64,000 nt of DNA from a virus, in IMG/VR virus record IMGVR_UViG_3300025274_001348, positions 1-64,000 of that record; one strand, given 5' to 3'. This document shows positions 540-12,977 of this stretch, piece by piece; position 1 is the first letter of the stretch, and each line of letters starts with the position of its first letter. A program made the translations under genes and the position numbers. Below the pieces are notes generated by a model that was not told the DNA's origin, made no database searches, and was given only the letters and a program-made list of their open reading frames with translations.

Positions 540-544
540 AGACC

Positions 545-631
545 ATGTGGATCATCTACTCAATTCTGGCACTGGTCTGGCTGTTGACGCTGATGGACAT
601 ATTCGTACCCGGATGGGATAGGGACAGATGA
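545..631 (+). CDS. single-TM micropeptide (MWIIYSILALVWLLTLMDIFVPGWDRDR)
   Basis: Hand translation; hydrophobic core; ATGA-coupled to next ORF. Confidence 0.5.
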   Translation: MWIIYSILALVWLLTLMDIFVPGWDRDR

Positions 632-738
632 ACATGTTTGGCAAAGTGTGCGACTGGGCGTTTATCACAATGTGGCTGGCGTGGATGCTGGGTGCTTTGG
701 TTGTGATGACATGGGCAGGGATCGGCGCACTGAGATAA
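628..738 (+). CDS. single-TM micropeptide (MNMFGKVCDWAFITMWLAWMLGALVVMTWAGIGALR)
   Basis: Hand translation; hydrophobic; overlaps previous stop. Confidence 0.55.
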   Translation: MNMFGKVCDWAFITMWLAWMLGALVVMTWAGIGALR

Positions 739-772
739 TCCGAGAAAGTTTCGGAATTCCTCAAGATTGGGC

Positions 773-848
773 TTGACACAGGCAGGCGGTTAAGGTAGAA
801 CCAGCAGCCTTGTGCGCCTTCGTAGTATCAGGCGTACTAGGCTGCTTG
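773..848 (+). repeat. module-boundary element copy 0: TTGACA-17-TAGAAC then hairpin AGCAGCCT.GTGCGCCT/AGGCGTAC.AGGCTGCT
   Basis: GGTAGAAC at 794 followed by a long stem-loop; divergent member of the repeat family. Confidence 0.55.
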
Positions 849-876
849 AGGACAACAGGACGAGAGAAGGGCTACA

Positions 877-945
877 ATGACCATCATCACCATCATCACC
901 ATCGCGCTGGCCGGGCTGCTGGTTCTCGACTTGGTCGATGGCTAG
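877..945 (+). CDS. hydrophobic micropeptide (MTIITIITIALAGLLVLDLVDG)
   Basis: Hand translation; purine-rich leader upstream. Confidence 0.45.
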   Translation: MTIITIITIALAGLLVLDLVDG

Positions 946-948
946 GGC

Positions 949-977
949 TTGACAGCCAGCGAGTCAGCGGGTACAAT
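949..977 (+). promoter_or_regulatory. class B promoter TTGACA-17-TACAAT
   Basis: Consensus match. Confidence 0.75.
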
Positions 978-984
978 ACAGACA

Positions 985-1048
985 TACGGGTGACAAGCTC
1001 CCCAAGTTCCGGGGCCGACCCAACACCACTAGCCTTGAAAGAGCGAAC
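985..1048 (+). promoter_or_regulatory. structured 5' leader, copy 1
   Basis: GGGT/ACCC, CCCC/GGGG and GAAA-loop stems; paralogous to 3050-3112. Confidence 0.55.
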
Positions 1049-1465
1049 ATGATCTTCGATGAAACGCGCGACAACCTGACCGACACCGAGGCCCAGAGCA
1101 TCGAAGCCGATGCCCACGCGGACACCCGCGAAGCCGAGGACACGCGGTGCAGCGAGCGCCGGGTGGCTGACGCTTGGTGGGCGGGCTTCAACCGCGCGAA
1201 GGCGAAGACCGCCGAGCAGGATGCCGCCGAGCAGGATGCCGCCATCGGTGCGGATTGGGCCGCTGCCGGTTACCCCGGCGACGGTGTCGATGACACCGGG
1301 GATGATCCCACCGATCCCGAGCATGACGAGGTCGGTGACGCGGACACCGACTACGACATCGAATTCGATGACGAGGACGACGGTCAGCCCACCGAGTACG
1401 AAGAGTGGCAGGACTACTTCGGTGGGGATGAGTACTACGACCACAGCGAGAACGGGTGTTGGTGA
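1049..1465 (+). CDS. hyper-acidic protein, paralog 1 (C-terminal DDGQPTEYEEWQDY motif); possible DNA mimic
   Basis: 138 aa, very D/E-rich; homologous to 3113-3430 and 5871-6098. Confidence 0.8.
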   Translation: MIFDETRDNLTDTEAQSIEADAHADTREAEDTRCSERRVADAWWAGFNRAKAKTAEQDAAEQDAAIGADWAAAGYPGDGVDDTGDDPTDPEHDEVGDADTDYDIEFDDEDDGQPTEYEEWQDYFGGDEYYDHSENGCW

Positions 1466-1545
1466 TGAAACAGGCAGCGGTCCAAACGCTGAAGATGATC
1501 GGCTGGGGCTTGGCAGTATTCGCCATGCTAGCCGCCACGCTCTAG
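1465..1545 (+). CDS. single-TM micropeptide (MKQAAVQTLKMIGWGLAVFAMLAATL)
   Basis: TGATG coupling to upstream gene; hydrophobic. Confidence 0.55.
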   Translation: MKQAAVQTLKMIGWGLAVFAMLAATL

Positions 1546-1555
1546 GCGGGGTTCG

Positions 1556-1722
1556 GGTAAAACGCGCCGCGTGGGTGTCTCCCGCCATCCACGCCGCTCC
1601 GCGTCAAGGGTAATCTGGGATTTAGCGTGATTTTTTAGTAATTGAGACTCGATCTCAATAGGCTAATCTGAGGAGATAGGGTGGACACTGGGCTTGATTT
1701 ATGCCGATAAGTATAGTATAAT
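1556..1722 (+). repeat. module-boundary element copy 1: GGTAAAAC-hairpin-GTCAAGGGTAAT, operator 1641-1659, class A promoter 1694-1722
   Basis: 9-bp stem GCGTGGGTG/CATCCACGC; ATTGAGA-N5-TCTCAAT; TTGATT-17-TATAAT with GCCGATAA. Confidence 0.85.
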
Positions 1723-1758
1723 GGGAACATACAACAGAGAACAAACGAAAGAGCAAAC

Positions 1759-1989
1759 ATGAGTTGGACAACTGCAACCAGAATTAGAAACGAAAAAATT
1801 CAACGGGCCGTCGAGTTGGCACAACGGGCCAATATCACCGACGTTGACAAGGCGAGAGCAATCAAGGACAAGTACGTTGCACTGCTCAACGAAGACCCCA
1901 CCAGCGAAAAGAATCAACGACTTTACAACTGGTCACAACAGGTTCTTATCGGGGCGAGAACGTTGGCCGGTGAGAGAATCTGGATTTGA
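1759..1989 (+). CDS. hypothetical phage protein
   Basis: 76 aa ORF directly after the promoter. Confidence 0.7.
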   Translation: MSWTTATRIRNEKIQRAVELAQRANITDVDKARAIKDKYVALLNEDPTSEKNQRLYNWSQQVLIGARTLAGERIWI

Positions 1990-1992
1990 AGC

Positions 1993-2021
1993 TTGACAAG
2001 CCGGGTTCATTCTGGTACAAT
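1993..2021 (+). promoter_or_regulatory. class B promoter TTGACA-17-TACAAT
   Basis: Consensus; followed by an ORF-free structured region. Confidence 0.75.
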
Positions 2022-2027
2022 GGACAC

Positions 2028-2577
2028 AACGAACAACGGGGCTACTGGAACTCACAGGCAACGCTGATAAGACGCCGTGAGATAGGGTTAAGAGCCACTG
2101 CAAGCCTAACACACAAAACATACTCTGGAGAAGTTTCGACAACTGATAACCCCTTGCGAGGGTAAGCCCACTAAGAACCGGGGCGCCACTAAAGTTCTCG
2201 GTGACGTAGGGGAAGCTGGTTAGCTTCTAATCGCAAGTGCAGTTGTTACAGGGCGCAACTCCCTGTCAGAGTGCCACACAATCCTGAGTAGTACCCCACG
2301 CTCGGTTGGCCGTTACAGCGGCAAGGGACTAGTAAGCCTAGTAGAAGCCTGTAAGCTTTGAACGGATGCTAGTACCATGGGGATCTTACAACGGACAGGA
2401 ATGGATTACGGGGTTGACCGACAAACTGGTCGCAGGGTTCAATTACCTGCCCTGTCCTTTGACACCACCCTAACAGAAGGGGACCGCGAATGAAGCTATA
2501 TTGAAACAGCACTAGCAAGATGGGCGTCTATCGTCCACAAGCCCCTGTCGGAAAACCAGCGACGGGGGCTTTTTTTA
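2028..2577 (+). ncRNA. candidate ~550-nt structured RNA with tRNA-like domains (2121-2276, 2393-2458)
   Basis: No credible ORF between promoter and terminator; many stems separated by A/C-rich linkers. Confidence 0.65.
2541..2577 (+). terminator. intrinsic terminator
   Basis: GCCCCTGTCG/CGACGGGGGC followed by a T-tract. Confidence 0.8.
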
Positions 2578-2612
2578 TTCCGAGGAAATTCTGGAATTAT
2601 TCAAGATTGGGG

Positions 2613-2801
2613 TTGACAGAGGGGCCGAGATTAGGTAAAACTCAGCGGCGAGGTGGTCTTCGCCCATCCGAGCCGCTTGGCGTCAAGGGTAATATGGCAG
2701 TTTGTGTGATTTTTTTCTAATTGAGACTGAGTGTCAATAAGGAAAAGTGAGGAGATAGGGTGGCGATTGGGCTTGTATTTTGTCGATAATAGTAGTATAA
2801 T
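2613..2801 (+). repeat. module-boundary element copy 2 (TTGACA-17-TAAAAC, hairpin, operator 2720-2738, class A promoter 2773-2801)
   Basis: GGTAAAAC at 2634; AGCGGC..GGTGG/CCATC..GCCGCT; GTCAAGGGTAAT. Confidence 0.85.
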
Positions 2802-2808
2802 GGGAGAC

Positions 2809-3009
2809 ATGAAAACGCAACACACATACAAGCCGATGGAATTCGCTCAGTACTTCGATACGCATGGCGTGCATCACGCCGTGACTGTCCTGTCCGTCTT
2901 GCATGACGGGAAGGCTGTGAAGATCCACTACTACACGGACATCGAGTTGACCGACGTGGTGGTCAAGTGGGTTTTGGCGAAATCCCTGATTCCCATGATT
3001 GGGGCTTGA
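2809..3009 (+). CDS. hypothetical protein, probably leaderless
   Basis: ATG 7 nt after TATAAT; stop inside the next -35 box. Confidence 0.7.
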   Translation: MKTQHTYKPMEFAQYFDTHGVHHAVTVLSVLHDGKAVKIHYYTDIELTDVVVKWVLAKSLIPMIGA

Positions 3010-3034
3010 CAACCAACGCCACGCTTGGTACAAT
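3006..3034 (+). promoter_or_regulatory. class B promoter
   Basis: TTGACA-17-TACAAT. Confidence 0.75.
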
Positions 3035-3049
3035 ACGAGCATACAAACA

Positions 3050-3112
3050 CACGGGTGCAAAGCTCCTCAAGATCCGAGGCCGACCCAACCACTAGCCTTG
3101 AAAGGGCAAAAC
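3050..3112 (+). promoter_or_regulatory. structured 5' leader, copy 2
   Basis: CCTC/GAGG replaces CCCC/GGGG of copy 1 (compensatory change). Confidence 0.55.
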
Positions 3113-3430
3113 ATGACGTTTGACGAATCGCGCGACAACCTGCTGGACATCGAAGCGGCTTCCATCGAGGCCGACGCCCACGCGGAAACCCGCGAAGCCG
3201 ACGACAATCGGCCCATGGAACGCCGGGTAGCCGACGCTTGGTGGGCAACCCGCAACGCGGAAGCCGACGCTCCCGATGACGTGGACCATGACGCGGATGA
3301 GAACCACCCGATGGGCGGGGACGACGACGAACCCGAGGAGGATGACGGCCAGCCCAGCGAGTACGAGGAGTGGCAGGATTACATGGGCGGGGATGAGTAC
3401 TACGACCACGGCGAAAACGGGGAGTGGTAG
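3113..3430 (+). CDS. hyper-acidic protein, paralog 2
   Basis: MTFDESRDNL…DDGQPSEYEEWQDYMGGDEYYDH. Confidence 0.8.
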   Translation: MTFDESRDNLLDIEAASIEADAHAETREADDNRPMERRVADAWWATRNAEADAPDDVDHDADENHPMGGDDDEPEEDDGQPSEYEEWQDYMGGDEYYDHGENGEW

Positions 3431-3432
3431 GC

Positions 3433-3504
3433 ATGGGATGGGCTTTCACGATCTTCTGGTTCCTGATGTTCGGCTTGATCTTTCTGGACATCCACGACGG
3501 ATAA
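3433..3504 (+). CDS. single-TM micropeptide (MGWAFTIFWFLMFGLIFLDIHDG)
   Basis: Hand translation; GGAG upstream. Confidence 0.55.
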   Translation: MGWAFTIFWFLMFGLIFLDIHDG

Positions 3505-3517
3505 CACGAACCCTTTC

Positions 3518-3564
3518 CACTCCGTCGCGGTGAGTGATGACACCGTGGCGGGGTGTTTTTTTTT
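3518..3564 (+). terminator. intrinsic terminator
   Basis: CACTCCGTCGCGGTG/CACCGTGGCGGGGTG plus T9. Confidence 0.8.
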
Positions 3565-3584
3565 GAGAAAATTCCAGATTGGGC

Positions 3585-3772
3585 TTGACATGGGGGCCGG
3601 GATCAGGTAAAACGCGCCGCGCGGATGTCCTGCCCCATCCGCGCTGCTCGGAGTCAAGGGTAATTTGGGATTCAGCGTGATTTTTTAGGAATTGAGATCC
3701 AGTCTCAATAGTGGAATCTGAGTAGATAAGGTGGCGGTTGGGGTTGATTTATGCCGATAAATATAGTATAAT
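3585..3772 (+). repeat. module-boundary element copy 3 (TTGACA-17-TAAAAC, hairpin, operator 3691-3709, class A promoter 3744-3772)
   Basis: Perfect stem GCGCGGATG/CATCCGCGC covarying with copy 1. Confidence 0.85.
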
Positions 3773-3779
3773 GGGAGAC

Positions 3780-4022
3780 ATGAAAGACACAACAGCGAAA
3801 CAAGTTTGGACAGGCCGCGACAAAGACGGCAACGCTTTCCGGCTCAACGCCCCGGTGAACGCTGGGAGTGAATGGGTGTTCAGCGAATCGGCTAGGCTGC
3901 TGGCCTTGCTGGGTTGGGCGAAGGTTTCCGTCGTAATGAAGGGCGACCACATTGTCCTGCTCAACTCGGCGGTCAAGGCAGATCCCGTTTCGCCACCGTT
4001 CCTGAATCCCAACAAGGCTTGA
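3780..4022 (+). CDS. hypothetical protein, probably leaderless
   Basis: ATG 7 nt after TATAAT; stop in next -35. Confidence 0.7.
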   Translation: MKDTTAKQVWTGRDKDGNAFRLNAPVNAGSEWVFSESARLLALLGWAKVSVVMKGDHIVLLNSAVKADPVSPPFLNPNKA

Positions 4023-4047
4023 CAACCCTACCACGATCTGGTACAAT
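4019..4047 (+). promoter_or_regulatory. class B promoter
   Basis: TTGACA-17-TACAAT. Confidence 0.75.
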
Positions 4048-4053
4048 ACACAC

Positions 4054-4290
4054 ATGCAACACAAACCCAAGACCGGCGATCTGTTTGACAGGGGCAATCA
4101 ACACGACTTCGAGTTGGTCCCGTTGAAAGCTCACAGGAAATGGCAGTACATCACGATTCTGCACGGGATTGACGGCAGACCGGCGGATTGTGGTGTGAGA
4201 GTGGACTACCCGCGTTTGACGGGTGGCGGCTTTGGTTTCAATGGTGAGATCAAGCAACGACGGAAGATCTGGAAAGTGAAAGGGACGTAG
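4054..4290 (+). CDS. hypothetical protein, probably leaderless
   Basis: ATG 6 nt after TACAAT. Confidence 0.7.
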   Translation: MQHKPKTGDLFDRGNQHDFELVPLKAHRKWQYITILHGIDGRPADCGVRVDYPRLTGGGFGFNGEIKQRRKIWKVKGT

Positions 4291-4292
4291 AG

Positions 4293-4490
4293 ATGGAAGA
4301 ACTGTGGAACGCACAAACGGCAGCGGGGGTCAAGTTTCAATTCTGGATGCCGGAAGGCTCCGACCATGATGCTGCGCTGGACGTAGCGTTGGGACTCAAG
4401 GACAAGATCGATCCCGACTTCAATGACTGGTTGGTCATGGTGACGATGGCGGCGTTGACCGGACACAACGGCTCCCCGATTCTGTCTTGA
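4293..4490 (+). CDS. hypothetical protein
   Basis: 65 aa; stop inside the next -35 (4487-4515 promoter). Confidence 0.65.
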   Translation: MEELWNAQTAAGVKFQFWMPEGSDHDAALDVALGLKDKIDPDFNDWLVMVTMAALTGHNGSPILS

Positions 4491-4545
4491 CAATCGGCGG
4501 CTGGTCTGGTACAATATACGAAACGGTAGCGCGAGAGGGCAAGGA

Positions 4546-4737
4546 ATGGAATTGGTTTACAAGCTGGATGGGGTCGAAGTCTGGTACTGTCACGAGTCTG
4601 ACGACTTCGAGGTGTGGGCGATGGTGTCGAATGGCCCTGACGACTTCCAGTGGGACGTGGTGTTGACAACCGACGACAGCGAATGGGCTGTGATCGTCGC
4701 GGATGAAGTTTGGCTCAAGATGGAGACGATGGTATGA
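4546..4737 (+). CDS. acidic hypothetical protein
   Basis: 63 aa, D/E/W-rich, after a class B promoter. Confidence 0.65.
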   Translation: MELVYKLDGVEVWYCHESDDFEVWAMVSNGPDDFQWDVVLTTDDSEWAVIVADEVWLKMETMV

Positions 4738-5000
4738 TGACGCGAAAACACTTCAAGATGCTGGCCGCTTCTATTGCGAAGCTGACCCTGTTCGACAAGG
4801 ACGCGGGCTACGACATGGCTTGCGAGGTGGCCGACGCTTGTGCGAAGGACAACCCGCGCTTTGACCGGGTCAAGTTCTTCGAGGCTTGCGGGTTTCCCGG
4901 CGGGATGCACTTGCGTCCATTGCCGGTGCAATACGTGAACTGCGTGGTCGATGCTCAGGGTTTCGTTCCCGCGCGGACTAACAAGAAAGGGGAAACATGA
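4734..5000 (+). CDS. hypothetical phage protein (MTRKHFK…DNPRFDRVKF type)
   Basis: ATGA overlap; motif typical of small phage early proteins. Confidence 0.7.
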   Translation: MMTRKHFKMLAASIAKLTLFDKDAGYDMACEVADACAKDNPRFDRVKFFEACGFPGGMHLRPLPVQYVNCVVDAQGFVPARTNKKGET

Positions 5001-5056
5001 TCTGGGAAACCGTGATCCAAGTGGCCGTGATCATCCTAGCGATCATCGCTCACTAA
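4997..5056 (+). CDS. single-TM micropeptide (MIWETVIQVAVIILAIIAH)
   Basis: ATGA-coupled; AAGGGG RBS. Confidence 0.5.
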   Translation: MIWETVIQVAVIILAIIAH

Positions 5057-5080
5057 AAAGATGGGCGTCTATCGCCTATA

Positions 5081-5112
5081 AACCTCGCCCCTATATGCGG
5101 CGGGGTTTTTTT
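5081..5112 (+). terminator. intrinsic terminator
   Basis: AACCTCGCC/GGCGGGGTT plus T-tract. Confidence 0.7.
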
Positions 5113-5167
5113 ATAACTATATATAACGGCGGCGGCGGGATGTATAAGGGTATATAGTGACGGTTTA

Positions 5168-5333
5168 GGTAAAACGCGCCGGGCAGTGGTCTTGCGCCAA
5201 CTGCCCTGCTTCGCGTCAAGGGTAATCTGGGATTTGGTGTGGTTTTTTAGAAATTGAGATCATGTCTCAATAGGGGGAATTGCTGAGATATGGTGGAGAC
5301 TGGGCTTGCATAATGCCGATAATATGTTATAAT
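5168..5333 (+). repeat. module-boundary element copy 4 (hairpin, operator 5253-5271, class A promoter 5306-5333)
   Basis: GGTAAAACGCGCC-GGGCAGT/ACTGCCC-…GTCAAGGGTAATCTGGGATTT. Confidence 0.85.
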
Positions 5334-5369
5334 GGGGGACAGACAACAACAAGTGAAAGGGTTTGAAAG

Positions 5370-5666
5370 ATGACGAAGACAGTTCCAATGGTTTCCAGTG
5401 ATTGCGTGATCGCCGTGATGGACAAGGCGATGAGCGTGGACATGATGCAGTTCGGTGCGGAGACGCTTGAGGAGATGATGAAGGATCAGCCTCAACTGCT
5501 CAAGGTGATTTCCTTCCTGCTCACCGAACTCATCGCCAAGGGCAAGGACGAGGAAACCGCCGCGATTGATGCCGTCCAGACGATGGCCGTGATCGGCGTG
5601 GTGTTCAAGGCAATCAAGACCCAGATCGAAGCCGACGAAATGGAAATGTCGGAAGACTGGTCTTGA
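5370..5666 (+). CDS. hypothetical protein, paralog of 8163-8480
   Basis: Shared IAVM.KA, QP.L and FK.IK.QIEA.EM motifs. Confidence 0.75.
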   Translation: MTKTVPMVSSDCVIAVMDKAMSVDMMQFGAETLEEMMKDQPQLLKVISFLLTELIAKGKDEETAAIDAVQTMAVIGVVFKAIKTQIEADEMEMSEDWS

Positions 5667-5697
5667 CAATCAACCCCCCGTCTGGTACAATTGACAC

Positions 5698-5874
5698 ATG
5701 AAACACATCGAACTCAGCATCCCCTGTCGGACAACGGCCAGCTTTCGCCAGCCGCAACAGCAGCCCGTCAAGGACACCCCGGAGAAACGGGAAGCCCGGA
5801 TTCGCCTGTACGCTTGGCGAGCCGAAAACAACCTCGACATTTTCACTGGATTTCCGAAAAGGACAACCCCATGA
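5698..5874 (+). CDS. 58-aa hypothetical protein, probably leaderless (MKHIELSIPC…NNLDIFTGFPKRTTP)
   Basis: Below ORF-track cutoff; ATG 6 nt after TACAAT of promoter 5663-5691; ATGA-coupled to next gene. Confidence 0.6.
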   Translation: MKHIELSIPCRTTASFRQPQQQPVKDTPEKREARIRLYAWRAENNLDIFTGFPKRTTP

Positions 5875-6098
5875 CGTTTGAAGAAGCCTTCGAGAACGAC
5901 CCCCAAGCCCGCGCCGAATTCGAGGAGTACCTCGACGAGATGGCCGAGGACCACGTCCACGTTGCGGTGAGTCTCCACGACAGGGACGAGGAGTGGGATG
6001 CGGAGAACGACGGCCAGCCCACGGAGTACGAGGAGTGGCAAGACTTCATGGGTGGCGACGACTGGGATCAAGGCCAGTACGACGATCTTGGTTACTAG
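5871..6098 (+). CDS. hyper-acidic protein, paralog 3
   Basis: NDGQPTEYEEWQDFMGGDDWD motif. Confidence 0.75.
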   Translation: MTFEEAFENDPQARAEFEEYLDEMAEDHVHVAVSLHDRDEEWDAENDGQPTEYEEWQDFMGGDDWDQGQYDDLGY

Positions 6099-6100
6099 AA

Positions 6101-6179
6101 TACGGGTCGAGGTGGTGTTGGTTGTCTCCGTTCTAGAGCGGACAGTACGCCAACGTAATGCAAACCACACACCCCCGTA
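6101..6179 (+). ncRNA. rod-like hairpin upstream of tRNA-Asp
   Basis: TACGGG/CCCGTA, GTGGT/ACCAC, TGTTGG/CCAACG, TCCGTTC/GAGCGGA nested. Confidence 0.35.
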
Positions 6180-6184
6180 GATCC

Positions 6185-6257
6185 GGGGACGTAACTCAAC
6201 AGGCAGAGTGCCGGATTGTCTATCCGGTGGTTGCGGGTTCAAATCCCGCCGTCCTCG
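6185..6257 (+). tRNA. tRNA-Asp(GTC)
   Basis: GGGGACG/CGTCCTC acceptor, CCGGA-TTGTCTA-TCCGG anticodon arm, GCGGG-TTCAAAT-CCCGC T arm; no encoded CCA. Confidence 0.92.
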
Positions 6258-6347
6258 CTTTATATAGCCGCTGCTTCTCGCCCTGTTTTATATACTTATA
6301 TAACTCATCGGGGCCGGGGGTGGCGGTTGTTTTATAGACCCGGATCA

Positions 6348-6494
6348 GGTGAAACGCGACGGCGCTGTGTCGCTCGACAACCGCGCCGCTGGGCGGCTTG
6401 GGGACTAGCAAGTGAAAATGAGTCAGGAAAACTTTGGGATTCTCGGAAATAGGATCAAGATTGGGGTTGACTTTGGTCGATAATATACTATACT
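6348..6494 (+). repeat. module-boundary element copy 5 (GGTGAAAC-hairpin; class A promoter 6467-6494)
   Basis: GGCGC..TGTCG/CGACA..GCGCC; TTGACT-16-TATACT with GTCGATAA. Confidence 0.75.
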
Positions 6495-6523
6495 GGAGGA
6501 GTAAGTCAGTGAGAGGGCAAGAC

Positions 6524-6730
6524 ATGAAACGCAAGACGAAGAAGATGAATCGCGGCACAATCGAGTTCGGTGCTAACTGCGTCACGATCACGATTGAGAG
6601 CGAGCCATGGAAGGTTGGCAGGATTCATTCCGTCAACAAGGCTGGCGCTGGCAAGCACAAGGACAGGCGAACCAAGCGGAACCGCACACGAGCAAACCAG
6701 AACCACAACGCAATCAGGGAATCCATGTAA
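6524..6730 (+). CDS. basic hypothetical protein
   Basis: K/R-rich 68 aa; GAGAGGG RBS. Confidence 0.7.
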   Translation: MKRKTKKMNRGTIEFGANCVTITIESEPWKVGRIHSVNKAGAGKHKDRRTKRNRTRANQNHNAIRESM

Positions 6731-6731
6731 A

Positions 6732-6830
6732 ATGGTAACTGACCTCTTGACTTGGACGAACATCTGTGGTATAATTGTGGCTGTGGGATTCATTTCGGTT
6801 TTGGCAGACAAACTTGGTTGGTGGGAATAG
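6732..6830 (+). CDS. single-TM micropeptide (MVTDLLTWTNICGIIVAVGFISVLADKLGWWE)
   Basis: Hydrophobic; contains an internal TTGACT-17-TATAAT promoter (6747-6775). Confidence 0.5.
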   Translation: MVTDLLTWTNICGIIVAVGFISVLADKLGWWE

Positions 6831-6834
6831 GGAG

Positions 6835-7317
6835 ATGACGATGAGCGACAAGGCTATGCGGATTACTGACAACAAGGGATTCCAACTGGATCTGCCTAAC
6901 GGCGTGACGGTTTCCGTCCAGTGGGGTCCGGGCAACTACTGCGACAGCGACGTGTCGAATGCCAAGTGGGATGCCCCGAAAAAGGCGATTGACGGTGACG
7001 AGCATTGGGGTTCCAACACCGCCGAGTGTGCCGCCTACGTTACTGGTAGCAATCTGTCGTGGGTTGCCGTGCCGGGATACACTGGGCCTCACGGTTGCGA
7101 CGACGAGGACGTGTTCTACGATGACGTGGTTGGACACCTTGACGTTCAGGGCGTTCTGGACTTCATCAATCTGGCATCGCAGGTTGCTGCGGAACCGAAC
7201 CCGAACAGCATCGGAAACAAGATGCTGGGCTGGCTCGAAAAGGAAGATCCTGTGCCTAGCGATCAGCATCCGTTCCCACTCCCCGGACAGAAGGAGCTTG
7301 ATTTCGATGACGCTTGA
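6835..7317 (+). CDS. hypothetical phage protein (GF.L..PNG.TVSVQWG.GNYC motif)
   Basis: Motif recognised from phage hypothetical proteins. Confidence 0.75.
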   Translation: MTMSDKAMRITDNKGFQLDLPNGVTVSVQWGPGNYCDSDVSNAKWDAPKKAIDGDEHWGSNTAECAAYVTGSNLSWVAVPGYTGPHGCDDEDVFYDDVVGHLDVQGVLDFINLASQVAAEPNPNSIGNKMLGWLEKEDPVPSDQHPFPLPGQKELDFDDA

Positions 7318-7516
7318 CCAATTGTGGAGAATCGCTCTGGAGCATTTTCCAGCGTGTCACATCACGGAAGACATGGACGGGGAAATCGTGATCGCCACCG
7401 GGCTGATAATGGAAGGTCCACCGTTGGGGATGGACGGCTTGACGGTTGCGAACATTCCGGCGAAACAACAACAACACGTTCAACTCAGGGAGATGACTGG
7501 TGAAGACCTTACGTAA
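7307..7516 (+). CDS. hypothetical protein
   Basis: AAGGAG RBS; overlaps upstream stop. Confidence 0.6.
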   Translation: MTLDQLWRIALEHFPACHITEDMDGEIVIATGLIMEGPPLGMDGLTVANIPAKQQQHVQLREMTGEDLT

Positions 7517-7655
7517 AGGCGAGAAGTTCAAGCGGCTGAAGAATTCCACCAAGACCGACTTGGGCGTTATCAAGAAACTGGTCAAGGACGGGTGGACGTT
7601 CTGCGACAAGACAACGTGGAGGGCGCTCAGAGATGGCGATGCTGCGAAAGATTAA
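7500..7655 (+). CDS. 51-aa basic hypothetical protein (MKTLRKGEKF…GWTFCDKTTW…)
   Basis: GTG start with GGAG RBS; hand translation. Confidence 0.55.
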   Translation: MKTLRKGEKFKRLKNSTKTDLGVIKKLVKDGWTFCDKTTWRALRDGDAAKD

Positions 7656-7722
7656 TCGGGACACTTTGGTGACGTTTGCGTTCATCGGCTTCTGGACCTT
7701 TATCATCGTGGCAACACGGTGA
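7639..7722 (+). CDS. single-TM micropeptide (MLRKINRDTLVTFAFIGFWTFIIVATR)
   Basis: Hand translation; ends 8 nt before element copy 6. Confidence 0.5.
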   Translation: MLRKINRDTLVTFAFIGFWTFIIVATR

Positions 7723-7729
7723 GGGTTCA

Positions 7730-7885
7730 GGTGAAACGCTGCGGCGGGTGTGTCGCTGCACATCCCGCCAGCTTCGGCGCAAGGGTAATCTGGGATTTTG
7801 AGCGATTTTTTCGAAAGTTTTTTCTGGCAATCTGACGGGATTTACTGGAGTGCGACCTTGACTAATGCCGATAATATACTATAAT
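7730..7885 (+). repeat. module-boundary element copy 6 (class A promoter 7858-7885)
   Basis: GGTGAAAC; GGCGGG.TGTG/CACA.CCCGCC; CAAGGGTAATCTGGGATTT. Confidence 0.8.
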
Positions 7886-7913
7886 GGGGGGAACAATACA
7901 CGAGGGTGAGAGC

Positions 7914-8099
7914 ATGACAGAGAAAGAGTTGGACAGGCTGCTGGCAGAAGACGGATACGGGGTGCGTGAGGTTTGCGGTGAACGGGCAGGCGAAACCGTT
8001 TGGGAGTTGTGGGAGTTGATGGATTCTAGCACTGGCTGGATCGTCGGCTACTTCGACACCGCCGAAGACGTTTGCGATTTTGTCGGGATTTATGCTTGA
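7914..8099 (+). CDS. acidic hypothetical protein
   Basis: 61 aa; stop in next -35 (8096-8123 promoter). Confidence 0.65.
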   Translation: MTEKELDRLLAEDGYGVREVCGERAGETVWELWELMDSSTGWIVGYFDTAEDVCDFVGIYA

Positions 8100-8162
8100 C
8101 AATGGTTGATAGTCTGCTACAATGGATAGCAGACAAGGACACAAGAACGAGAGGGTTTGAAA

Positions 8163-8480
8163 ATGGCGACGATGAACGGGATGCCGCGAGTGACGAAGGA
8201 CGCAACGATTGCCGTGATGCACAAGGCAACGACAATCGACATGGCTGAATTCGGGGTTCAAGTCCTCGATGAACTGGACGAGGAGCAACCGGCCTTGTGT
8301 CAGATGCTCACTCACATGATCATGGACCTCGCCTGTCCCGACGAGATGCCCGAGGAATTGAAGCAGTCGAATGCTCTGATCATGACCGTCATCGCCGGAT
8401 GTCTGTTCAAGTCGATCAAGGCACAGATTGAAGCGGAAGAAATGGCAAGTTTGTTTAGTGAAGAGGAGACTGTTGAATGA
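8163..8480 (+). CDS. hypothetical protein, paralog of 5370-5666
   Basis: Visible alignment. Confidence 0.75.
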   Translation: MATMNGMPRVTKDATIAVMHKATTIDMAEFGVQVLDELDEEQPALCQMLTHMIMDLACPDEMPEELKQSNALIMTVIAGCLFKSIKAQIEAEEMASLFSEEETVE

Positions 8481-8653
8481 CACACGTTGGAATTGGTGAT
8501 CGAGTGCTGTTTGACTACCACGGCAAGGCTCGGAGTGGTAGCATCGAGAAGATCGGGAATGGTCCCGCTGGCGTCTACGTCATCATCGCACACGGCGATG
8601 GCTCGCACAAGACGTTCTCACAACCCAAAATCAGTAACCTGCGAAAGGTGTAA
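8477..8653 (+). CDS. 58-aa SH3/WYL-like small protein, paralog of 39733-39954
   Basis: FDYHGKARSG…GNGPAG…KTFSQPKISNL; hand translation. Confidence 0.55.
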   Translation: MTHVGIGDRVLFDYHGKARSGSIEKIGNGPAGVYVIIAHGDGSHKTFSQPKISNLRKV

Positions 8654-8655
8654 AC

Positions 8656-8832
8656 ATGAAGACGACGGTTGCGACATTCGAGTTGGAAAAGGAAACCAAG
8701 AACACGATTCGCTACAGCGAAACGCCGGATGAAGGCGTGGCCCCAGTGGTCAACACGATCTACATCCAGAAGCACGTTCTCGGCAAGACCGCTCCACAGA
8801 ACATCAAGGTGACAATGGAGGAATCTAAATAA
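8656..8832 (+). CDS. 58-aa hypothetical protein (MKTTVATFELEKETKNTIRY…IYIQK…)
   Basis: AAGGTG RBS; hand translation. Confidence 0.65.
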   Translation: MKTTVATFELEKETKNTIRYSETPDEGVAPVVNTIYIQKHVLGKTAPQNIKVTMEESK

Positions 8833-9147
8833 GGCGGGGATTGCAACCCCGTCTAGGGTGGTGACTGAACAATCCCCGGTTATGGGGGGATAAGGTGCGC
8901 GCTGCTGAGTTCCGATAGCCGAATGGTCGAGGAGTTCAGGTAGACGGCAGTCATACAGAACTACCATATCTGTGAGCTTGCGGGCAAAAGTGAATCCCGC
9001 CCACCCGTTATACATACAGCGCTGGCTAAGAACCGGGGCGCCACTATAATACTCGGTGACGCCAGCGCTATCAAACAGTGACTTGGAGTTTCGCCCTTTC
9101 CTCAGTCGCTGGCCCCCGTTCCGGTTCGCCGGTGCGGGGGTTTTTTT
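8832..9147 (+). ncRNA. candidate structured RNA: cloverleaf-like domain 8856-9007, conserved motif hairpin 9018-9069, terminator 9112-9147
   Basis: ORF-free; multiple perfect stems; shares a 36-nt motif with 2171-2206. Confidence 0.65.
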
Positions 9148-9161
9148 ATTGGCGGGGATCG

Positions 9162-9306
9162 GGTGAAACGCGGCGGCGGGTTGTCGCTGGGCAACAACGC
9201 CGCTCGGCGTCAAGAGGAAAGTGGAGGTTTAGGCGATTTTGTGGAAAGTTTTTCTAGGGAATATATTCAAGTTGGGGGTTGACAATAGCCGATAATACTC
9301 TATAAT
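9162..9306 (+). repeat. module-boundary element copy 7 (class A promoter 9279-9306)
   Basis: GGTGAAAC; GCGGCG..GTTGTC/GGCAAC..CGCCGC; GTCAAG; TTGACA-16-TATAAT with GCCGATAA. Confidence 0.8.
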
Positions 9307-9336
9307 GGGGGAGTAACACACACACGAGGGCAAGCA

Positions 9337-10119
9337 ATGTTGAAGTGGTCGAAAGCAAACGCGAAAACGGAACGGTTGAACGAGAGTTGTTGGGCAATTG
9401 CCAAGCACCTTGACGATGGGCGGAAGGTCTACAGTCTCGATCTGTTGTCGGGCTACTCGTGTCCGTTTGCAAAGGCGTGTCTCTCGAAAGCGGTTGTCGG
9501 TGAAAATGGCAAGCGGACAATCAAGGACGGTCCCCACAATGAGTTTCGTTGTTTCTCGGCATCGCAAGAGGTGCAGTACACCAACGTGTACAATCTCCGC
9601 AAACACAATTACGACACCTTGAAGGAAAACCAAGACGACTGGCCGTTGATGTATCAGGAACTGTGGAAGTCGATTCCCCCGGATGCCGGGATTGTTCGGA
9701 TTCATGTTGCAGGGGATTTCTTCAACGAGAATTATCTCCGGGCTTGGATTGAACTGGCTCAAACAACTCCCGACGTGTTGTTCTACGCCTACACCAAAAG
9801 CCTGAAGTATTGGGATGCTCTCAAGAGTGAAGTCCCCGAGAATCTGGTGCTGACGGCGTCGTATGGTGGGCGTGACGACTGGATGATTGATCATGGTGGA
9901 TTCCGATTCGCCAAGGTGGTATTCTCAGAAGCGGAAGCGGAAGAACTCGACTTGATTATCGACCACGATGATTCCCACGCTGCTAATCCAACGTGGCGGG
10001 ATGAGAGTTTCGCACTGTTGATTCACGGGACACAACCGGCGGGATCGGAAGCGGCGACGGCTCTGCGAGAATTGAAGGGTAAAGGTTCTTACTCTAGAAA
10101 ACAAAAGGTGACGGGATGA
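9337..10119 (+). CDS. Gp88-like phage protein (Cys-containing, radical-SAM-related fold)
   Basis: L.SGYSCP.A..C, VRIHVAGDFF and FYAYTKS motifs. Confidence 0.7.
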   Translation: MLKWSKANAKTERLNESCWAIAKHLDDGRKVYSLDLLSGYSCPFAKACLSKAVVGENGKRTIKDGPHNEFRCFSASQEVQYTNVYNLRKHNYDTLKENQDDWPLMYQELWKSIPPDAGIVRIHVAGDFFNENYLRAWIELAQTTPDVLFYAYTKSLKYWDALKSEVPENLVLTASYGGRDDWMIDHGGFRFAKVVFSEAEAEELDLIIDHDDSHAANPTWRDESFALLIHGTQPAGSEAATALRELKGKGSYSRKQKVTG

Positions 10120-10325
10120 TTGAGAGAACGACGATTGTGGCGGTGGATTGCATTCAGTGCAAGGAAACCCAACATATCACAACAAAAACCGAGGATCTCG
10201 ATTCTTGGGAGAATGGCGAACTGATTCAGAACGCCATGCCGTACTTGACGGCTGATGAGCGGGAAGTCCTCATTAGCGGGATTTGCGGGACTTGTTTCGA
10301 CAATATGTTCGCGGGTGACGAATGA
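10116..10325 (+). CDS. small Zn-binding protein (CxxC…CxxC)
   Basis: CIQC, IQNAMPYL, LISGICGTC. Confidence 0.7.
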   Translation: MIERTTIVAVDCIQCKETQHITTKTEDLDSWENGELIQNAMPYLTADEREVLISGICGTCFDNMFAGDE

Positions 10326-10765
10326 TCGACTATACTAAACGGGTTTACGTCTATTGGAATCTCCACCGGAAACTGTGGAGTGTGAGACAATCCGGGCTTA
10401 TCGTAGACCACGCCCACCTGTTGTCGTTGCGGGATTGTAAGTTCCTCGTCGGCAAGGCTGGACAGGCTAGGGTTCGACGCGAGGGAAAGAAAAACGTCCA
10501 CGCTGGCGTGAGCGGCTACCTGCTGGAAGATCCGTGTAGCGTTGACCGAATGGTGTGGAATGGGTTCTACGATAAACAAGTGTGGGTCATGTACAACCCC
10601 TATAAGCACGACACGTTTGTAGAGCGGACTGGCGTGTGTGACGACCAGTATCCGATCCCAGTATATAGAGCCGACTTCGTTGCAATGTACAAAGACAATG
10701 ACCGGGACGCCCCGACAGTAATGGCTCTAGAGCCGGAAGGTGAGCAATGCGTGACATCTTGCTAG
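10322..10765 (+). CDS. conserved phage hypothetical protein
   Basis: VYWNLH…WSVR…KKNVHA…YNPYK motifs. Confidence 0.75.
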   Translation: MIDYTKRVYVYWNLHRKLWSVRQSGLIVDHAHLLSLRDCKFLVGKAGQARVRREGKKNVHAGVSGYLLEDPCSVDRMVWNGFYDKQVWVMYNPYKHDTFVERTGVCDDQYPIPVYRADFVAMYKDNDRDAPTVMALEPEGEQCVTSC

Positions 10766-10845
10766 TGGCAGCGGCGTGGGCTTATGTAATTCTTTACGCC
10801 TTCGAATTGTTTATGCGGTACTGCCCATTGACAGACATTGGGTAA
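10747..10845 (+). CDS. single-TM micropeptide (MRDILLVAAAWAYVILYAFELFMRYCPLTDIG)
   Basis: Its TAA stop lies within GGTAAGAC of element copy 8. Confidence 0.5.
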   Translation: MRDILLVAAAWAYVILYAFELFMRYCPLTDIG

Positions 10846-11013
10846 GACAGGGCGTCGTTGTGGCTCACGCAACCCACGCCGCTGGAGGCGATCTAGGTGT
10901 GCGAGCAAGTAAAAGTCAAGTACAAAATCGGAATCTGGGCGATTTTAAAAAAGATTCTTTTTTGACCAATCGGGGCTAAAGATGCTTGACATATTGTGTC
11001 GATAAACTATAAT
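10841..11013 (+). repeat. module-boundary element copy 8 (class A promoter 10986-11013)
   Basis: GGTAAGAC; GGCGT..GTTGTG/CGCAAC..ACGCC; TTGACA-16-TATAAT with GTCGATAA. Confidence 0.65.
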
Positions 11014-11083
11014 GGAGACATACAGTTGAGTTGGTGAGTGTTTCACCGACAATGAGTTTTGACCGCAGACGGAGACAAGAGAC

Positions 11084-11410
11084 ATGAGTGAGAAGAAGCA
11101 AAGAGCAGAGGCGATTTCGGCCACGGCATTCGTGGAAGCATACGTTAAGGTTCACCAGAACGGCGGCACGATTGCCGACGTTGCCGACGAGTTGGGCCGG
11201 TCTGTTGAGCAGACCCGGAGCAAGAAGAATGCTCTGACTCCCGCATTCGCTGAACGCGGGATCAAGCTGCCGAAGTTGGTTCGGCAAGGTCGCAACGGCA
11301 CGTCCTACGACGAGGCGGCTCAGGTCGCTGGTGACTACCTCGCAAGTCTGATGGCGGGGAGTGACGAGGCCGAGTCCGACGAGTCGGAGTCGGAATTCGC
11401 TTCGGAGTAA
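11084..11410 (+). CDS. putative HTH DNA-binding protein with acidic tail
   Basis: TIADVADELGRS HTH-like segment; GGAG RBS; terminator at 11426-11462. Confidence 0.65.
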   Translation: MSEKKQRAEAISATAFVEAYVKVHQNGGTIADVADELGRSVEQTRSKKNALTPAFAERGIKLPKLVRQGRNGTSYDEAAQVAGDYLASLMAGSDEAESDESESEFASE

Positions 11411-11528
11411 TCATCCGTCGCGGAGGTGGGGTCGCCCTTTATTAGGGCGGCCCTGCTTTTTTCTTGACTTGTCCTGCTACTTATGTTACTATGTAGAAGG
11501 ACAGAAAACTAACTTTTGGAGTGATGAG

Positions 11529-12785
11529 ATGAATGAAAAAATCGAAGCGTATGACGGAGCGAATGAAGAAGGTCAGTGGGTGTTCGACTCACAGGGGGTT
11601 GCCTCTGACGAAGGGTTCGGTCACGTCTCGAAGGACTGGTATCCCAAGACCATCAGCTATGATGAAGGCATGGACCAACTGGAATCGGAGCGAGGTCACC
11701 GGCAGGACTTTCTTGTCCCGATTTCCGATCTGGATTTTGGCATCGAGGACGTGAAGGGGAAACCCCGATTCGTGGTCGTTGTCGAGGACCAGACCTTTGT
11801 TCCTAACAACCATGCTCTCCAACAGATGACAGCAAAGTTGTGCGAGGGCAAGGGAACGGGCTTCACTCGCTGGTTGACCGAGGATCAGGTCAACGCCAAA
11901 GAGGAGTCTCGCTACAAGCGTGACCGGCGGGATGCCGAAGTGATTGATGCCATTATCAGTAATGGCTTCCGTCGCATCCTCGAAGCTAAACCTGATACCA
12001 GTTACAAGATTCGTACCTACGATGATGGTACGATGCGAGCCTTCCTCAGTGAGAAATACGCCGAGGTGGACAATCGCTGGTACTTGGAGCAGATCGAGGA
12101 TATTATCCCGAATGGCCGATTGAGCCACTGGCGGGGTAACGCCGACACCATTTTCGGCAACGTCCTGATTCCCGATACCATCCGTGAGGAAGAAGATTCC
12201 GATTACGGCGGGATGATCTCGATTGGTAACTGCGAGATCGGCAAGAGGAATGTCCTGTCGATGCCAAGCCTGTTCCGTGCAATCTGCATGAACGGTTGCA
12301 TCTGGGGACAAACCAAGGGTACTGAGATTCGTGTTCGCCATATCGGTGATATCGACCTCGAAGATCTTTCCAAGCGGATTCGGAATAACATCGAGACGCA
12401 GATTCCTCTGCTTCCCGCTGGTATCGAGAGACTGCTGGGTGTTCGCCTGATGGAGAACGACGGCGTTCCCATGAAGTCGATCATCGCTGGTGTTGCCGAC
12501 ATGGAGAAGTTGCAGAAGCGTGAAGCGACTGCCGTTCTCGAAGCATGGGTGATGTTTGAATCCAAGACTCCCGGTGAGAACCGGAATCTGTTTGGGGTTG
12601 TGAACAGCGTGACCCGTGCCGGTCAATTCCTTGGGAATGAGAACTGGGTGAAGTTCGATCAGCTTGGTGGAAGGCTGGTCAACTACACGGACAATCAGTG
12701 GGATCGTCTTTGCAACCGCGCAGAGGATTACGACGACACTGATTACAACCGTATCTTCACCAACAAGGCGGTGTTGGCCGCATAA
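11529..12785 (+). CDS. DUF932-family phage/plasmid protein
   Basis: RAFLSEKY..VDN, ISIGNCEIG, FRAICMNG, RVRH.G motifs; promoter TTGACT-17-TACTAT at 11464-11492. Confidence 0.75.
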   Translation: MNEKIEAYDGANEEGQWVFDSQGVASDEGFGHVSKDWYPKTISYDEGMDQLESERGHRQDFLVPISDLDFGIEDVKGKPRFVVVVEDQTFVPNNHALQQMTAKLCEGKGTGFTRWLTEDQVNAKEESRYKRDRRDAEVIDAIISNGFRRILEAKPDTSYKIRTYDDGTMRAFLSEKYAEVDNRWYLEQIEDIIPNGRLSHWRGNADTIFGNVLIPDTIREEEDSDYGGMISIGNCEIGKRNVLSMPSLFRAICMNGCIWGQTKGTEIRVRHIGDIDLEDLSKRIRNNIETQIPLLPAGIERLLGVRLMENDGVPMKSIIAGVADMEKLQKREATAVLEAWVMFESKTPGENRNLFGVVNSVTRAGQFLGNENWVKFDQLGGRLVNYTDNQWDRLCNRAEDYDDTDYNRIFTNKAVLAA

Positions 12786-12795
12786 GGAGGTCAAC

Positions 12796-12885
12796 ATGGA
12801 ACGGTATGTCGGATACGGTATGTTCGCCTTTGGAGTGCTACTGTTTTGGATAGGTTTCAAGAATAGGTGGCGAGAAGAAGACTAG
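12796..12885 (+). CDS. single-TM micropeptide (MERYVGYGMFAFGVLLFWIGFKNRWREED)
   Basis: Perfect AAGGAGG RBS. Confidence 0.7.
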   Translation: MERYVGYGMFAFGVLLFWIGFKNRWREED

Positions 12886-12908
12886 AACCTACTAACTAGC
12901 AACGCGCG

Positions 12909-12943: not shown

Positions 12944-12977
12944 GTGAAAAAATCGGGGATTGGACTTGACAAGATCG

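What the first reader, a model, noticed from the sequence alone, without database searches (positions are those of the whole stretch)
545..12885. Each module ends in a single-TM micropeptide or a structured RNA
Seen by hand translation, mostly below the ORF-track cutoff: unrelated 19-36 aa hydrophobic peptides are the last ORF before 7 of the 10 boundary elements (628-738, 1465-1545, 3433-3504, 4997-5056, 7639-7722, 10747-10845, 12796-12885). Extra ones lie at 545-631, 877-945 and 6732-6830. Several are start/stop-coupled or have good RBSs. The other three modules end in ncRNA or tRNA. A positional rule without sequence similarity suggests selection on position. Inference: membrane tethering of each transcription unit (transertion, possibly aiding genome entry), type I toxin-like peptides, or a diversified set of inhibitors of host membrane defence or receptor complexes.
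Basis: partly seen in the sequence, partly recalled or inferred. Interest (0 to 1): 0.78.

Follow-up and report, generated by a model that had tools for sequence, protein, structure and literature searches.

The report
Phage early membrane micropeptide genes
The early region of this marine phage carries ten tiny genes for greasy, membrane-type peptides; they look like real, conserved genes, but their place at the ends of gene modules is a tendency and not a rule, and tiny genes of this kind are already known in other phages.

Summary
They are 10 of the 20 plus-strand ATG frames of 19-40 aa in 1-13000. Elsewhere in the window the share is 6-14%, and random sequence of the same composition gives 0.16 per 13 kb. 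At least four are real coding genes. Families A-D have homologues in related marine phage contigs with open frames and with pN/pS of 0.13-0.55 in the named frame only. Family D has 15 cluster representatives among 1.84 billion proteins.

In this window the positional rule holds: 7 of 7 protein-ended modules end in a micropeptide (P about 1e-5 to 7e-4, post hoc). It weakens in relatives. The one complete relative shows 5 of 8. The same families also occur first, internally or as single-gene promoter units.

Transertion is unlikely, because 19-36 aa peptides stay inside the ribosome tunnel (PMC12648545). No antisense partner of a type I toxin was seen.

Best reading: shuffled cassettes for single-helix membrane micropeptides that act on host or phage membrane proteins. 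The function is untested. Earlier notes of this scan report similar tiny genes in lambda-like and T4-like phages.

The parts
545..631 (+). 28-aa hydrophobic micropeptide frame, second gene of module 0
   Evidence: ATG to stop, KD15 2.52. Only a weak match (E 0.008) among 22,688 small frames of related loci.
628..738 (+). 36-aa micropeptide, family A; ATGA overlap with 545-631; last gene before the partial boundary copy at 736-801
   Evidence: KD15 2.11. Homologue in the complete relative (L063 reverse strand, 12277-12396), also just before a boundary: E 7e-4, pN/pS 0.47.
877..945 (+). 22-aa micropeptide with an acidic tail, followed by the promoter at 949-977
   Evidence: KD15 2.91. Similar to 3433-3504: z 7.2 against shuffles.
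1465..1545 (+). 26-aa micropeptide; its ATG overlaps the stop of the acidic gene 1049-1465; it ends 6 nt before boundary core 1551-1631
   Evidence: KD15 1.97. No homologue found.
3433..3504 (+). 23-aa micropeptide after the acidic gene 3113-3430, followed by the intrinsic terminator 3518-3564
   Evidence: KD15 2.41. Terminator fold -28.1 kcal/mol, z -3.6.
4997..5056 (+). 19-aa micropeptide, ATGA overlap with gene 4734-5000, followed by the terminator at about 5080-5112
   Evidence: KD15 2.46. Terminator z -3.8. No homologue found.
6732..6830 (+). 32-aa micropeptide, family C, internal; a consensus-like promoter (6747-6775) lies inside it; directly upstream of gene 6835-7317
   Evidence: Homologues in L006 (3047-3133) and L060 (1339-1437). 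No stops in this frame against 2-6 in the other frames. pN/pS 0.39-0.84 in frame against 0.82-1.67 out of frame.
7633..7722 (+).
   Evidence: Homologues in L061, L068, L104, L105 and the complete relative. pN/pS 0.36-0.41 in frame against 0.94-1.27 out of frame.
10747..10845 (+). 32-aa micropeptide, family D; overlaps the end of gene 10322-10765 and runs 9 nt into boundary core 10837-10908
   Evidence: Homologues in L006, L061, L108 and L109, with 11 invariant columns. pN/pS 0.13-0.33 in frame against 0.83-1.93 out of frame. 15 cluster representatives at E <= 1e-3.
12796..12885 (+). 29-aa micropeptide after the DUF932-like gene 11526-12785, with a strong ribosome-binding site; followed by the terminator 12908-12943
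   Evidence: KD15 1.95. Terminator z -3.1. A small hydrophobic frame sits in the same place in 8 of 51 related loci within 20 nt, and in 11 of 51 within 100 nt.
1551..1631 (+). Boundary core (reference copy). Further copies at 2629-2710, 3601-3681, 5164-5241, 6343-6407, 7726-7806, 9157-9237, 10837-10908 and 12973-13025; partial copy at 736-801
   Evidence: Repeat families D1-D5, D10 and D13. nhmmer profile hits with E 2.5e-21 to 1.5e-3.
6185..6258 (+). tRNA-Asp, which closes module 5
   Evidence: ARAGORN and Rfam.
8832..9010 (+). manA-like RNA, which closes module 7
   Evidence: Rfam RF01745, 47 bits, E 1.3e-9, below the gathering score of 55.2.
2028..2577 (+). Promoter-to-terminator stretch without a credible frame (candidate ncRNA), which closes module 2
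   Evidence: Promoter 1993-2021. T-run 2570-2576. No Rfam match at E <= 1. Not studied further.

Best explanation
The ten frames are real early genes of a marine phage of about 150 kb. Each encodes a peptide of 19-36 aa that is little more than one hydrophobic helix with a short charged tail.

Shown: the frames are far more frequent than chance. At least four belong to families kept open and under purifying selection in related phages. The families move between modules.

Inferred: after release from the ribosome the peptides insert into the host inner membrane. There each binds a particular host or phage membrane protein or perturbs the membrane, serving host takeover, exclusion of other phages or counter-defence. 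The models are bacterial small membrane proteins and T4 Imm.

The genes are cassettes in an array of strong sigma-70-type promoters and terminator/boundary elements that recombine with each other, as T4 PeSLs do. The end-of-module place seen here is a preference of that architecture and not a requirement for function: a small cistron is added between the last gene and the terminator and is translated by coupling.
For: Existence and excess.

Size and hydropathy split cleanly. All 10 frames of 36 aa or less are hydrophobic. 0 of 25 larger early proteins has KD19 above 1.68.

Homologues: families A, B, C and D (alignments).

Coding selection. On ungapped DNA alignments pN/pS is 0.33-0.41 in the named frame against 0.83-1.38 in the other two frames. 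Pooled over B and D, Fisher p is 4.6e-4 in frame, and 1.0 and 0.51 out of frame. For family D, L108 against L006, pS is about 1.0 and pN 0.14.

Family D has 15 representatives at under 50% mutual identity, 14 of them 29-54 aa, with a conserved C-terminal motif. All are unnamed or 'hypothetical'.

Own promoters: L068 and L069 carry units of promoter, single micropeptide, promoter.

Module shuffling. The order of shared blocks differs between relatives. Metagenome contigs join window places at promoter and boundary elements. The PeSL precedent is in PMC2839356 (passages).

Precedents for function. Small membrane proteins as modulators of larger membrane proteins: PMC12648545 (passages and sections 10-11). 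T4 Imm, a 9.3-kDa early membrane protein that binds the tape measure protein: bioRxiv 10.64898/2026.03.06.709160 (passages).
Against: There is no direct evidence of translation or of membrane insertion. The one RNA run holds only contigs 85-95% like parts of the region, and these may be DNA carry-over.

For six of ten frames no clear homologue was found in the loci held (545, 877, 1465, 3433, 4997, 12796). 877 and 3433 match only each other, and 12796 has only positional counterparts.

Some hydrophobic cores are only 15-16 residues long. Only hydropathy was computed.

6732-6830 contains a promoter, so part of its conservation may be regulatory.

No partner, host or phenotype is known. There is no hit in Pfam or PHROGs at E <= 0.01.

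The within-window positional pattern (P 1.4e-5 or 6.9e-4) is stronger than a pure architectural preference would predict.
Confidence: 0.6

Rival explanations
1. Gene nursery. Many of the micropeptides are young frames that arose or were captured in the short untranslated space between the last gene and the terminator. Hydrophobic ones persist because a single helix is stable in a membrane (the 'TM-first' model). In that case position reflects where new frames can arise, and most have little or no specific function.
For: Six of ten have no clear homologue in the relatives held. Presence differs between orthologous module ends: the window has family B at 7633-7722, while L006 has none before its boundary at 3955. 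The lengths are very short. The TM-first model comes from yeast (PMC7005711, abstract read).
Against: The plus strand is poor in T: 0.196 in the larger genes. Random sequence of this composition yields only 0.16 hydrophobic frames per 13 kb, so birth in place is not favoured. Families A-D are conserved, selected and mobile. Family B at 7633 is a transferred cassette and not a local birth.
Confidence: 0.15
2. Membrane-damaging peptides. The micropeptides act like type I toxins or small pore formers. They depolarise or permeabilise the host membrane early, for host shut-off or to block other phages, without a specific protein partner.
For: Size and a single hydrophobic helix match most type I toxins: under 60 aa with one helix (PMC12648545, passage). 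Their place as last, translationally coupled cistrons would keep the dose low.
Against: No minus-strand promoter-like site lies in or beside any of the ten, so no antisense partner is visible. In a hand-picked set of 45 micropeptides from this phage group, the first charged residue after the core is acidic in 27, basic in 12 and absent in 6. The review stresses positive charges for toxin action. Motifs such as those of families B and D point to specific binding. Ten or more different toxins in one early region seems redundant.
Confidence: 0.1
3. Position-dependent role. The terminal hydrophobic frame serves the transcript and not the cell. It brings each early mRNA, or the entering DNA, to the membrane, either by transertion or by a U-rich membrane 'zip code' in the RNA.
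For: 7 of 7 protein-ended modules in the window end this way, and 5 of 8 in the complete relative. T content is 0.281 in the micropeptide frames against 0.196 in the larger genes. mRNAs of small membrane proteins such as yohP bind SecY and YidC without translation (PMC12648545, section 11).
Against: Peptides of 19-36 aa cannot leave the tunnel before release, so classic transertion fails. The higher T content is what hydrophobic codons give anyway. The same families sit first, internally or alone in relatives. The 5 of 8 in the relative is not significant (P 0.09, rough gene count), and three of those five are orthologues of window cases. Protein-level selection and conserved non-hydrophobic motifs are not needed for a tether.
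Confidence: 0.07
4. Chance frames. The ORFs are not genes.
For: They are below usual gene-calling size, and expression was not shown.
Against: 10 observed against 0.16 expected by composition, and 50% against 6-14% in real-sequence controls. Conservation is frame-specific.
Confidence: 0.03

Closest known systems
Bacterial small membrane proteins (for example MgrB, CydX, YohP; review PMC12648545)
   Same: Under 50 aa. One hydrophobic helix with short tails. Often the last small cistron of an operon, as CydX is downstream of cydAB. Overall hydrophobicity matters. They act by binding larger membrane proteins (passages).
   Different: These are phage-encoded and lie in an early promoter array. There are ten in 13 kb, 10 of 36 genes. 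There is no sequence relation to any named family. Partners are unknown.
T4 Imm and the tiny hydrophobic early genes of T-even phages
   Same: Early-expressed small membrane proteins of a large lytic phage. Imm blocks genome translocation of a second phage by binding its tape measure protein (bioRxiv 10.64898/2026.03.06.709160, passages).
   Different: Imm is 83-94 aa with several helices, whereas these are 19-36 aa with one. No homology was found. That this phage is T4-like was not shown: RIIA and ribonucleotide reductase were the only named hallmarks seen.
PeSL cassettes (promoter-early stem-loops) of T4-type hyperplastic regions (PMC2839356, PMC4122927)
   Same: Repeated intergenic units of a strong sigma-70-type promoter plus a stem-loop terminator. 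They flank small orphan genes and recombine to shuffle them (abstracts and passages). Here there are 35 promoter-like sites against 10 expected, repeated boundary elements, shuffled module order and contig joints at the elements.
   Different: The boundary element here has its own conserved box and hairpin, unrelated in sequence. The PeSL passages I read say nothing about the hydrophobicity of the flanked genes: 'transmembrane' and 'hydrophobic' occur 0 times in PMC2839356.
Type I toxin-antitoxin toxins (Hok, TisB, IbsC and others)
   Same: Under 60 aa with one helix and short tails (PMC12648545, passage).
   Different: No antisense RNA gene is visible. Tails are mostly acidic, not basic. They are embedded in polycistronic phage units.

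Membership tests
Small membrane proteins (SMPs), as defined in PMC12648545 | Length of about 50 aa or less | tested here: met
   19-36 aa.
Small membrane proteins (SMPs) | A single hydrophobic alpha-helical segment long enough to span a membrane | tested here: inconclusive
   KD15 is 1.95-2.91 and the uncharged cores are 15-26 residues. No dedicated predictor or structure was run. Cores of 15-16 residues (1465, 4997, 10747) are short.
Small membrane proteins (SMPs) | The peptide is made and sits in the membrane | not testable with these tools
   Only contigs of one RNA library were available.
Type I toxin-antitoxin | Small hydrophobic toxin peptide | tested here: met
Type I toxin-antitoxin | Antisense or overlapping small RNA antitoxin with its own promoter | tested here: not met
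   The 11 minus-strand promoter-like sites in 1-14000 lie at 13844, 13753, 9074, 6509 (two), 5346, 4542, 3708, 2815, 2737 and 1658. None lies within or beside a micropeptide frame. This is a consensus scan only.
Type I toxin-antitoxin | Toxicity on expression | not testable with these tools
   -
Transertion (coupled transcription, translation and membrane insertion) | The nascent chain reaches the membrane machinery while still attached to the ribosome; this needs about 45-50 aa | tested here: not met
   The lengths are 19-36 aa, while the tunnel shields about 35 aa (PMC12648545, section 10).
PeSL-type regulatory cassette array | Repeated intergenic unit with a strong sigma-70-type promoter and a stem-loop or terminator | tested here: met
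   The boundary hairpin itself did not fold better than shuffles (z +0.3 to -0.7), but the separate terminators did (z -3.1 to -3.8).
PeSL-type regulatory cassette array | Recombination between units shuffles the flanked genes | tested here: met
   Block order differs between relatives. Contigs of runs X18-X20 join window places at promoter and boundary elements. The exchange is inferred from sequence and was not observed as an event.
PeSL-type regulatory cassette array | The host phage is a T4-type myovirus | not tested
   Only RIIA, ribonucleotide reductase and sugar-metabolism hits were seen.

The most novel reading that the evidence does not exclude
The hydrophobic micro-cistron that closes each early transcription unit is there for the transcript. 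Its U-rich helix-coding RNA, or the peptide made from it beside SecY or YidC, would bring whole early polycistronic mRNAs to the inner membrane next to the DNA entry site. Early proteins would then be made where the genome enters. The families would be conserved because they also fit the insertion machinery.
Probability: 0.06. Interest if true: 0.8.

Novelty: new member of a known kind. Interest (0 to 1): 0.42.

Why it matters
Standard annotation skips genes of 19-36 codons, yet here they make up 10 of 36 early genes of an abundant marine phage. The region was found in 18 DNA runs with half or more of its sampled words. At least one family is spread over many uncultured phages. Early small membrane peptides are candidates for host takeover, exclusion of other phages and counter-defence, and they are short enough to synthesise and test. 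The families defined here (A-D, plus F, G and H in relatives) give concrete targets. The value is a catalogue and a caution about the positional rule, not a new principle.

Tried and rejected
Near-identity searches of the phage collection with 1-13000 and with 14000-34000 found nothing. An exact scan of viral contigs with a 20-nt boundary pattern also found nothing.

Rfam at E <= 1 gave nothing for 2028-2577.

PHROGs and Pfam gave no hit at E <= 0.01 for 9 of the 10 peptides. The 19-aa peptide is below the tools' 20-aa minimum and was not sent. The best rows were E 0.046-0.38, and I treat them as noise.

The ESM Atlas features search for 628-735 gave scores of 0.81-0.82, a level that shuffled proteins reach a third of the time.

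My 'outside big ORFs' filter was spoiled by spurious long frames in GC-rich DNA. I dropped it.

Crude counts of hydrophobic small frames upstream of the DUF932-like gene in 16 more distant loci varied from 1 of 20 to 10 of 19. On inspection of L032, most overlap larger frames in AT-richer DNA. I draw nothing from these counts.

One pair (L108 against L006) was out of register by one codon (20% identity). It was redone in register.

Laid contigs: the tables shown listed no difference inside a micropeptide frame, but 799 rows were not shown, so this says nothing. The RNA library X20 holds related contigs only, which is no evidence of transcription.

The acidic gene and the micropeptide are not an obligate pair. 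A micropeptide follows 3 of 8 acidic-gene copies seen: 2 of 3 in the window, 1 of 2 in the complete relative and 0 of 3 in L067-L069.

Literature. A search for 'transertion' with 'bacteriophage' and 'early genes' listed 10 papers, none of which holds 'transertion'. Fremin et al. 2022 on small phage genes was seen only as a reference-list entry; its content is recalled. No supplementary files were asked for.

My note says the GC drop occurs in 14 of 16 loci. The table gives 15 of 16 higher upstream, 13 of them by 0.03 or more.

Full report
WHAT THE REGION IS. The window is the first 64 kb of an 84.5-kb viral contig estimated 56% complete. The contig carries RIIA, ribonucleotide reductase, sugar-metabolism genes, a tmRNA and two tRNAs. 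Near-identical DNA occurs in 18 DNA runs labelled marine, aquatic viral or brine metagenome, each with half or more of the sampled words.

Bases 1-13000 differ from the rest. GC is 0.52-0.56 there against about 0.41. There are 35 sigma-70-type promoter-like sites against 10.0 expected. A repeated boundary element is found nine times by a profile built from the window's copies, plus one partial copy at 736-801. Three of the module ends also have classic intrinsic terminators that fold far better than shuffles (z -3.1 to -3.8).

THE OBSERVATION. All ten frames are as described. In 1-13000 there are 20 plus-strand ATG frames of 19-40 aa, and 10 of them have a 15-residue hydropathy mean of 1.9 or more.

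Controls:
- 3 of 21 on the minus strand.
- 8 of 105 and 8 of 133 on the two strands of the rest of the window.
- A mean of 0.16 (at most 2) in 300 random sequences with the region's first-order composition.

The 25 larger early proteins are soluble by the same measure. None has a 19-residue mean above 1.68, and 2 of 25 reach 1.85 or more over 15 residues. So size and hydrophobicity split cleanly.

Of 45 pairs among the ten, only 877-945 and 3433-3504 are similar.

ARE THEY GENES? Related contigs came from searches with two larger genes of the region, with the acidic paralogue, and with alignments of two peptide families. One relative is a complete 161-kb genome whose early region runs across the contig ends.

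A search of the ten peptides against 22,688 small frames from these loci gave clear homologues for four:
- Family A: 628-738.
- Family B: 7633-7722.
- Family C: 6732-6830.
- Family D: 10747-10845.

12796-12885 has small hydrophobic counterparts in the same place after the DUF932-like gene. This holds in 8 of 51 loci within 20 nt and in 11 of 51 within 100 nt.

All homologues keep start, stop and frame. Substitutions follow the codon pattern of the named frame only. For families B and D, pN/pS is 0.33-0.41 in frame against 0.83-1.38 in the other two frames. The pooled Fisher p is 4.6e-4 in frame, and 1.0 and 0.51 out of frame. One family D pair has every synonymous site changed, with pN 0.14.

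A profile of five family D members found 15 cluster representatives at E <= 1e-3 among 1.84 billion proteins. Fourteen are 29-54 aa long, and all share the same C-terminal motif. None of the members looked up carries a name other than 'hypothetical protein'.

For 545, 877, 1465, 3433 and 4997 no outside homologue was found. Their flanking modules are also missing from the relatives held.

THE POSITIONAL RULE. On my gene map the window has 36 protein genes in 10 modules. Seven modules end in a protein gene, and all seven end in a micropeptide. P is 1.4e-5 if the ten were scattered over all slots, and 6.9e-4 if order were shuffled within modules. Both figures are post hoc.

The rule does not carry over cleanly.
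- In the complete relative I count eight protein-ended boundaries or terminators. Five are preceded by a micropeptide and three are not. This excludes one weak profile hit inside a promoter leader, which I set aside. With about 15 micropeptides among about 42 genes this gives P 0.09, and three of the five are orthologues of window cases.
- The orthologue of gene 7500-7655 ends directly at its boundary with no micropeptide.
- Family B is followed by a boundary, terminator or promoter in 4 of 6 contigs and by a larger gene in 2.
- Family D is followed by a larger gene in 3 of 5.
- Family C is always just upstream of the 160-aa gene.
- In L068 three micropeptide genes stand in a row right after a promoter.
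- In L068 and L069 single micropeptides have promoters on both sides.

The micropeptide genes thus behave as independent cassettes. They are often the last or the only cistron, but they do not have to be.

HOW IT LIKELY WORKS. The conserved motifs in families B and D include charged and aromatic residues outside the hydrophobic core. They point to sequence-specific contacts and not to mere greasiness.

A hand-picked, non-exhaustive catalogue holds 45 such peptides (15-41 aa) from this phage group. The first charged residue after the core is acidic in 27, basic in 12 and absent in 6. This differs from the basic tails stressed for type I toxins.

Peptides this short are fully inside the ribosome tunnel at release and must insert after translation (PMC12648545, section 10). 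This removes classic transertion. An RNA-based membrane targeting, as described for yohP mRNA (section 11), is not excluded. However, it is not needed to explain the data and fits the non-terminal copies poorly.

I therefore read the set as early membrane-acting micropeptides, each with its own target. The models are bacterial small membrane proteins and T4 Imm. This functional step is inference.

The array itself resembles PeSL cassettes of T4-type phages, which are promoter plus stem-loop units that recombine and shuffle small orphan genes (PMC2839356 and PMC4122927). In line with this, blocks shared with relatives lie in different orders. Metagenome contigs also join window positions at promoter and boundary elements, for example 1726 to 3738, 3772 to 9439 and 12942 to 10840.

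COMPARISON AND NOVELTY. Small single-helix membrane proteins are a known class in bacteria. Tiny hydrophobic early genes are known in T-even phages. Earlier notes of this scan report the same kind of gene in lambda-like, temperate and T4-like phages, one of them 'closing each accessory operon' (I did not check those notes).

New here are the particular families, their density, and the clear evidence that they are selected coding genes in an uncultured marine phage group. I file the finding as a new member of a known kind.

LIMITS. The gene maps are my own reading of the frame lists.

Noticed in passing
window 1-13000 against 13001-64000: GC falls from 0.52-0.56 to about 0.41 just after the DUF932-like gene and its terminator. 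In 15 of 16 related loci GC is higher upstream of that gene than downstream, by 0.03 or more in 13. The promoter-rich early block therefore has its own composition across this phage group.
   Followed up: partly
window 8832-9010: Match to the manA RNA motif (RF01745): 47 bits, E 1.3e-9, just under the gathering score of 55.2.
   Followed up: no
window 1726, 3738, 3772, 6185, 7889, 9439, 10840, 12942: Contigs of three metagenome runs and one RNA library join these places to each other. The places lie at promoter or boundary elements, as expected if related phages carry the same modules in other orders.
   Followed up: partly
L069 3446-5889; L068 5794-5965: Rows of units of consensus promoter, one 16-45-aa hydrophobic frame, then the next promoter. 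They include three copies of one 23-aa family.
   Followed up: partly
window 2517-2536 and 5057-5076: A motif of about 20 nt is repeated just upstream of two intrinsic terminators. It forms the first small hairpin in the fold of 5057-5115.
   Followed up: no
window 6747-6775; L006 3050-3078; L060 1354-1381: A promoter-like site lies inside the family C micropeptide frame in all three phages. Its -35 hexamer is read as Leu-Thr codons. Transcripts from it would lack the peptide's start codon.
   Followed up: partly
window 27704-28041 and 26519-26591: A phage-borne tmRNA (132.8 bits) and tRNA-Ile(TAT) lie in the lower-GC part of the genome.
   Followed up: no
window 1049-1465, 3113-3430, 5871-6098: Three strongly acidic paralogues (net charge -37, -32 and -25), with relatives in L067-L069 and in the complete relative. 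Their C-terminal motif alone recurs in many large viral contigs.
   Followed up: no
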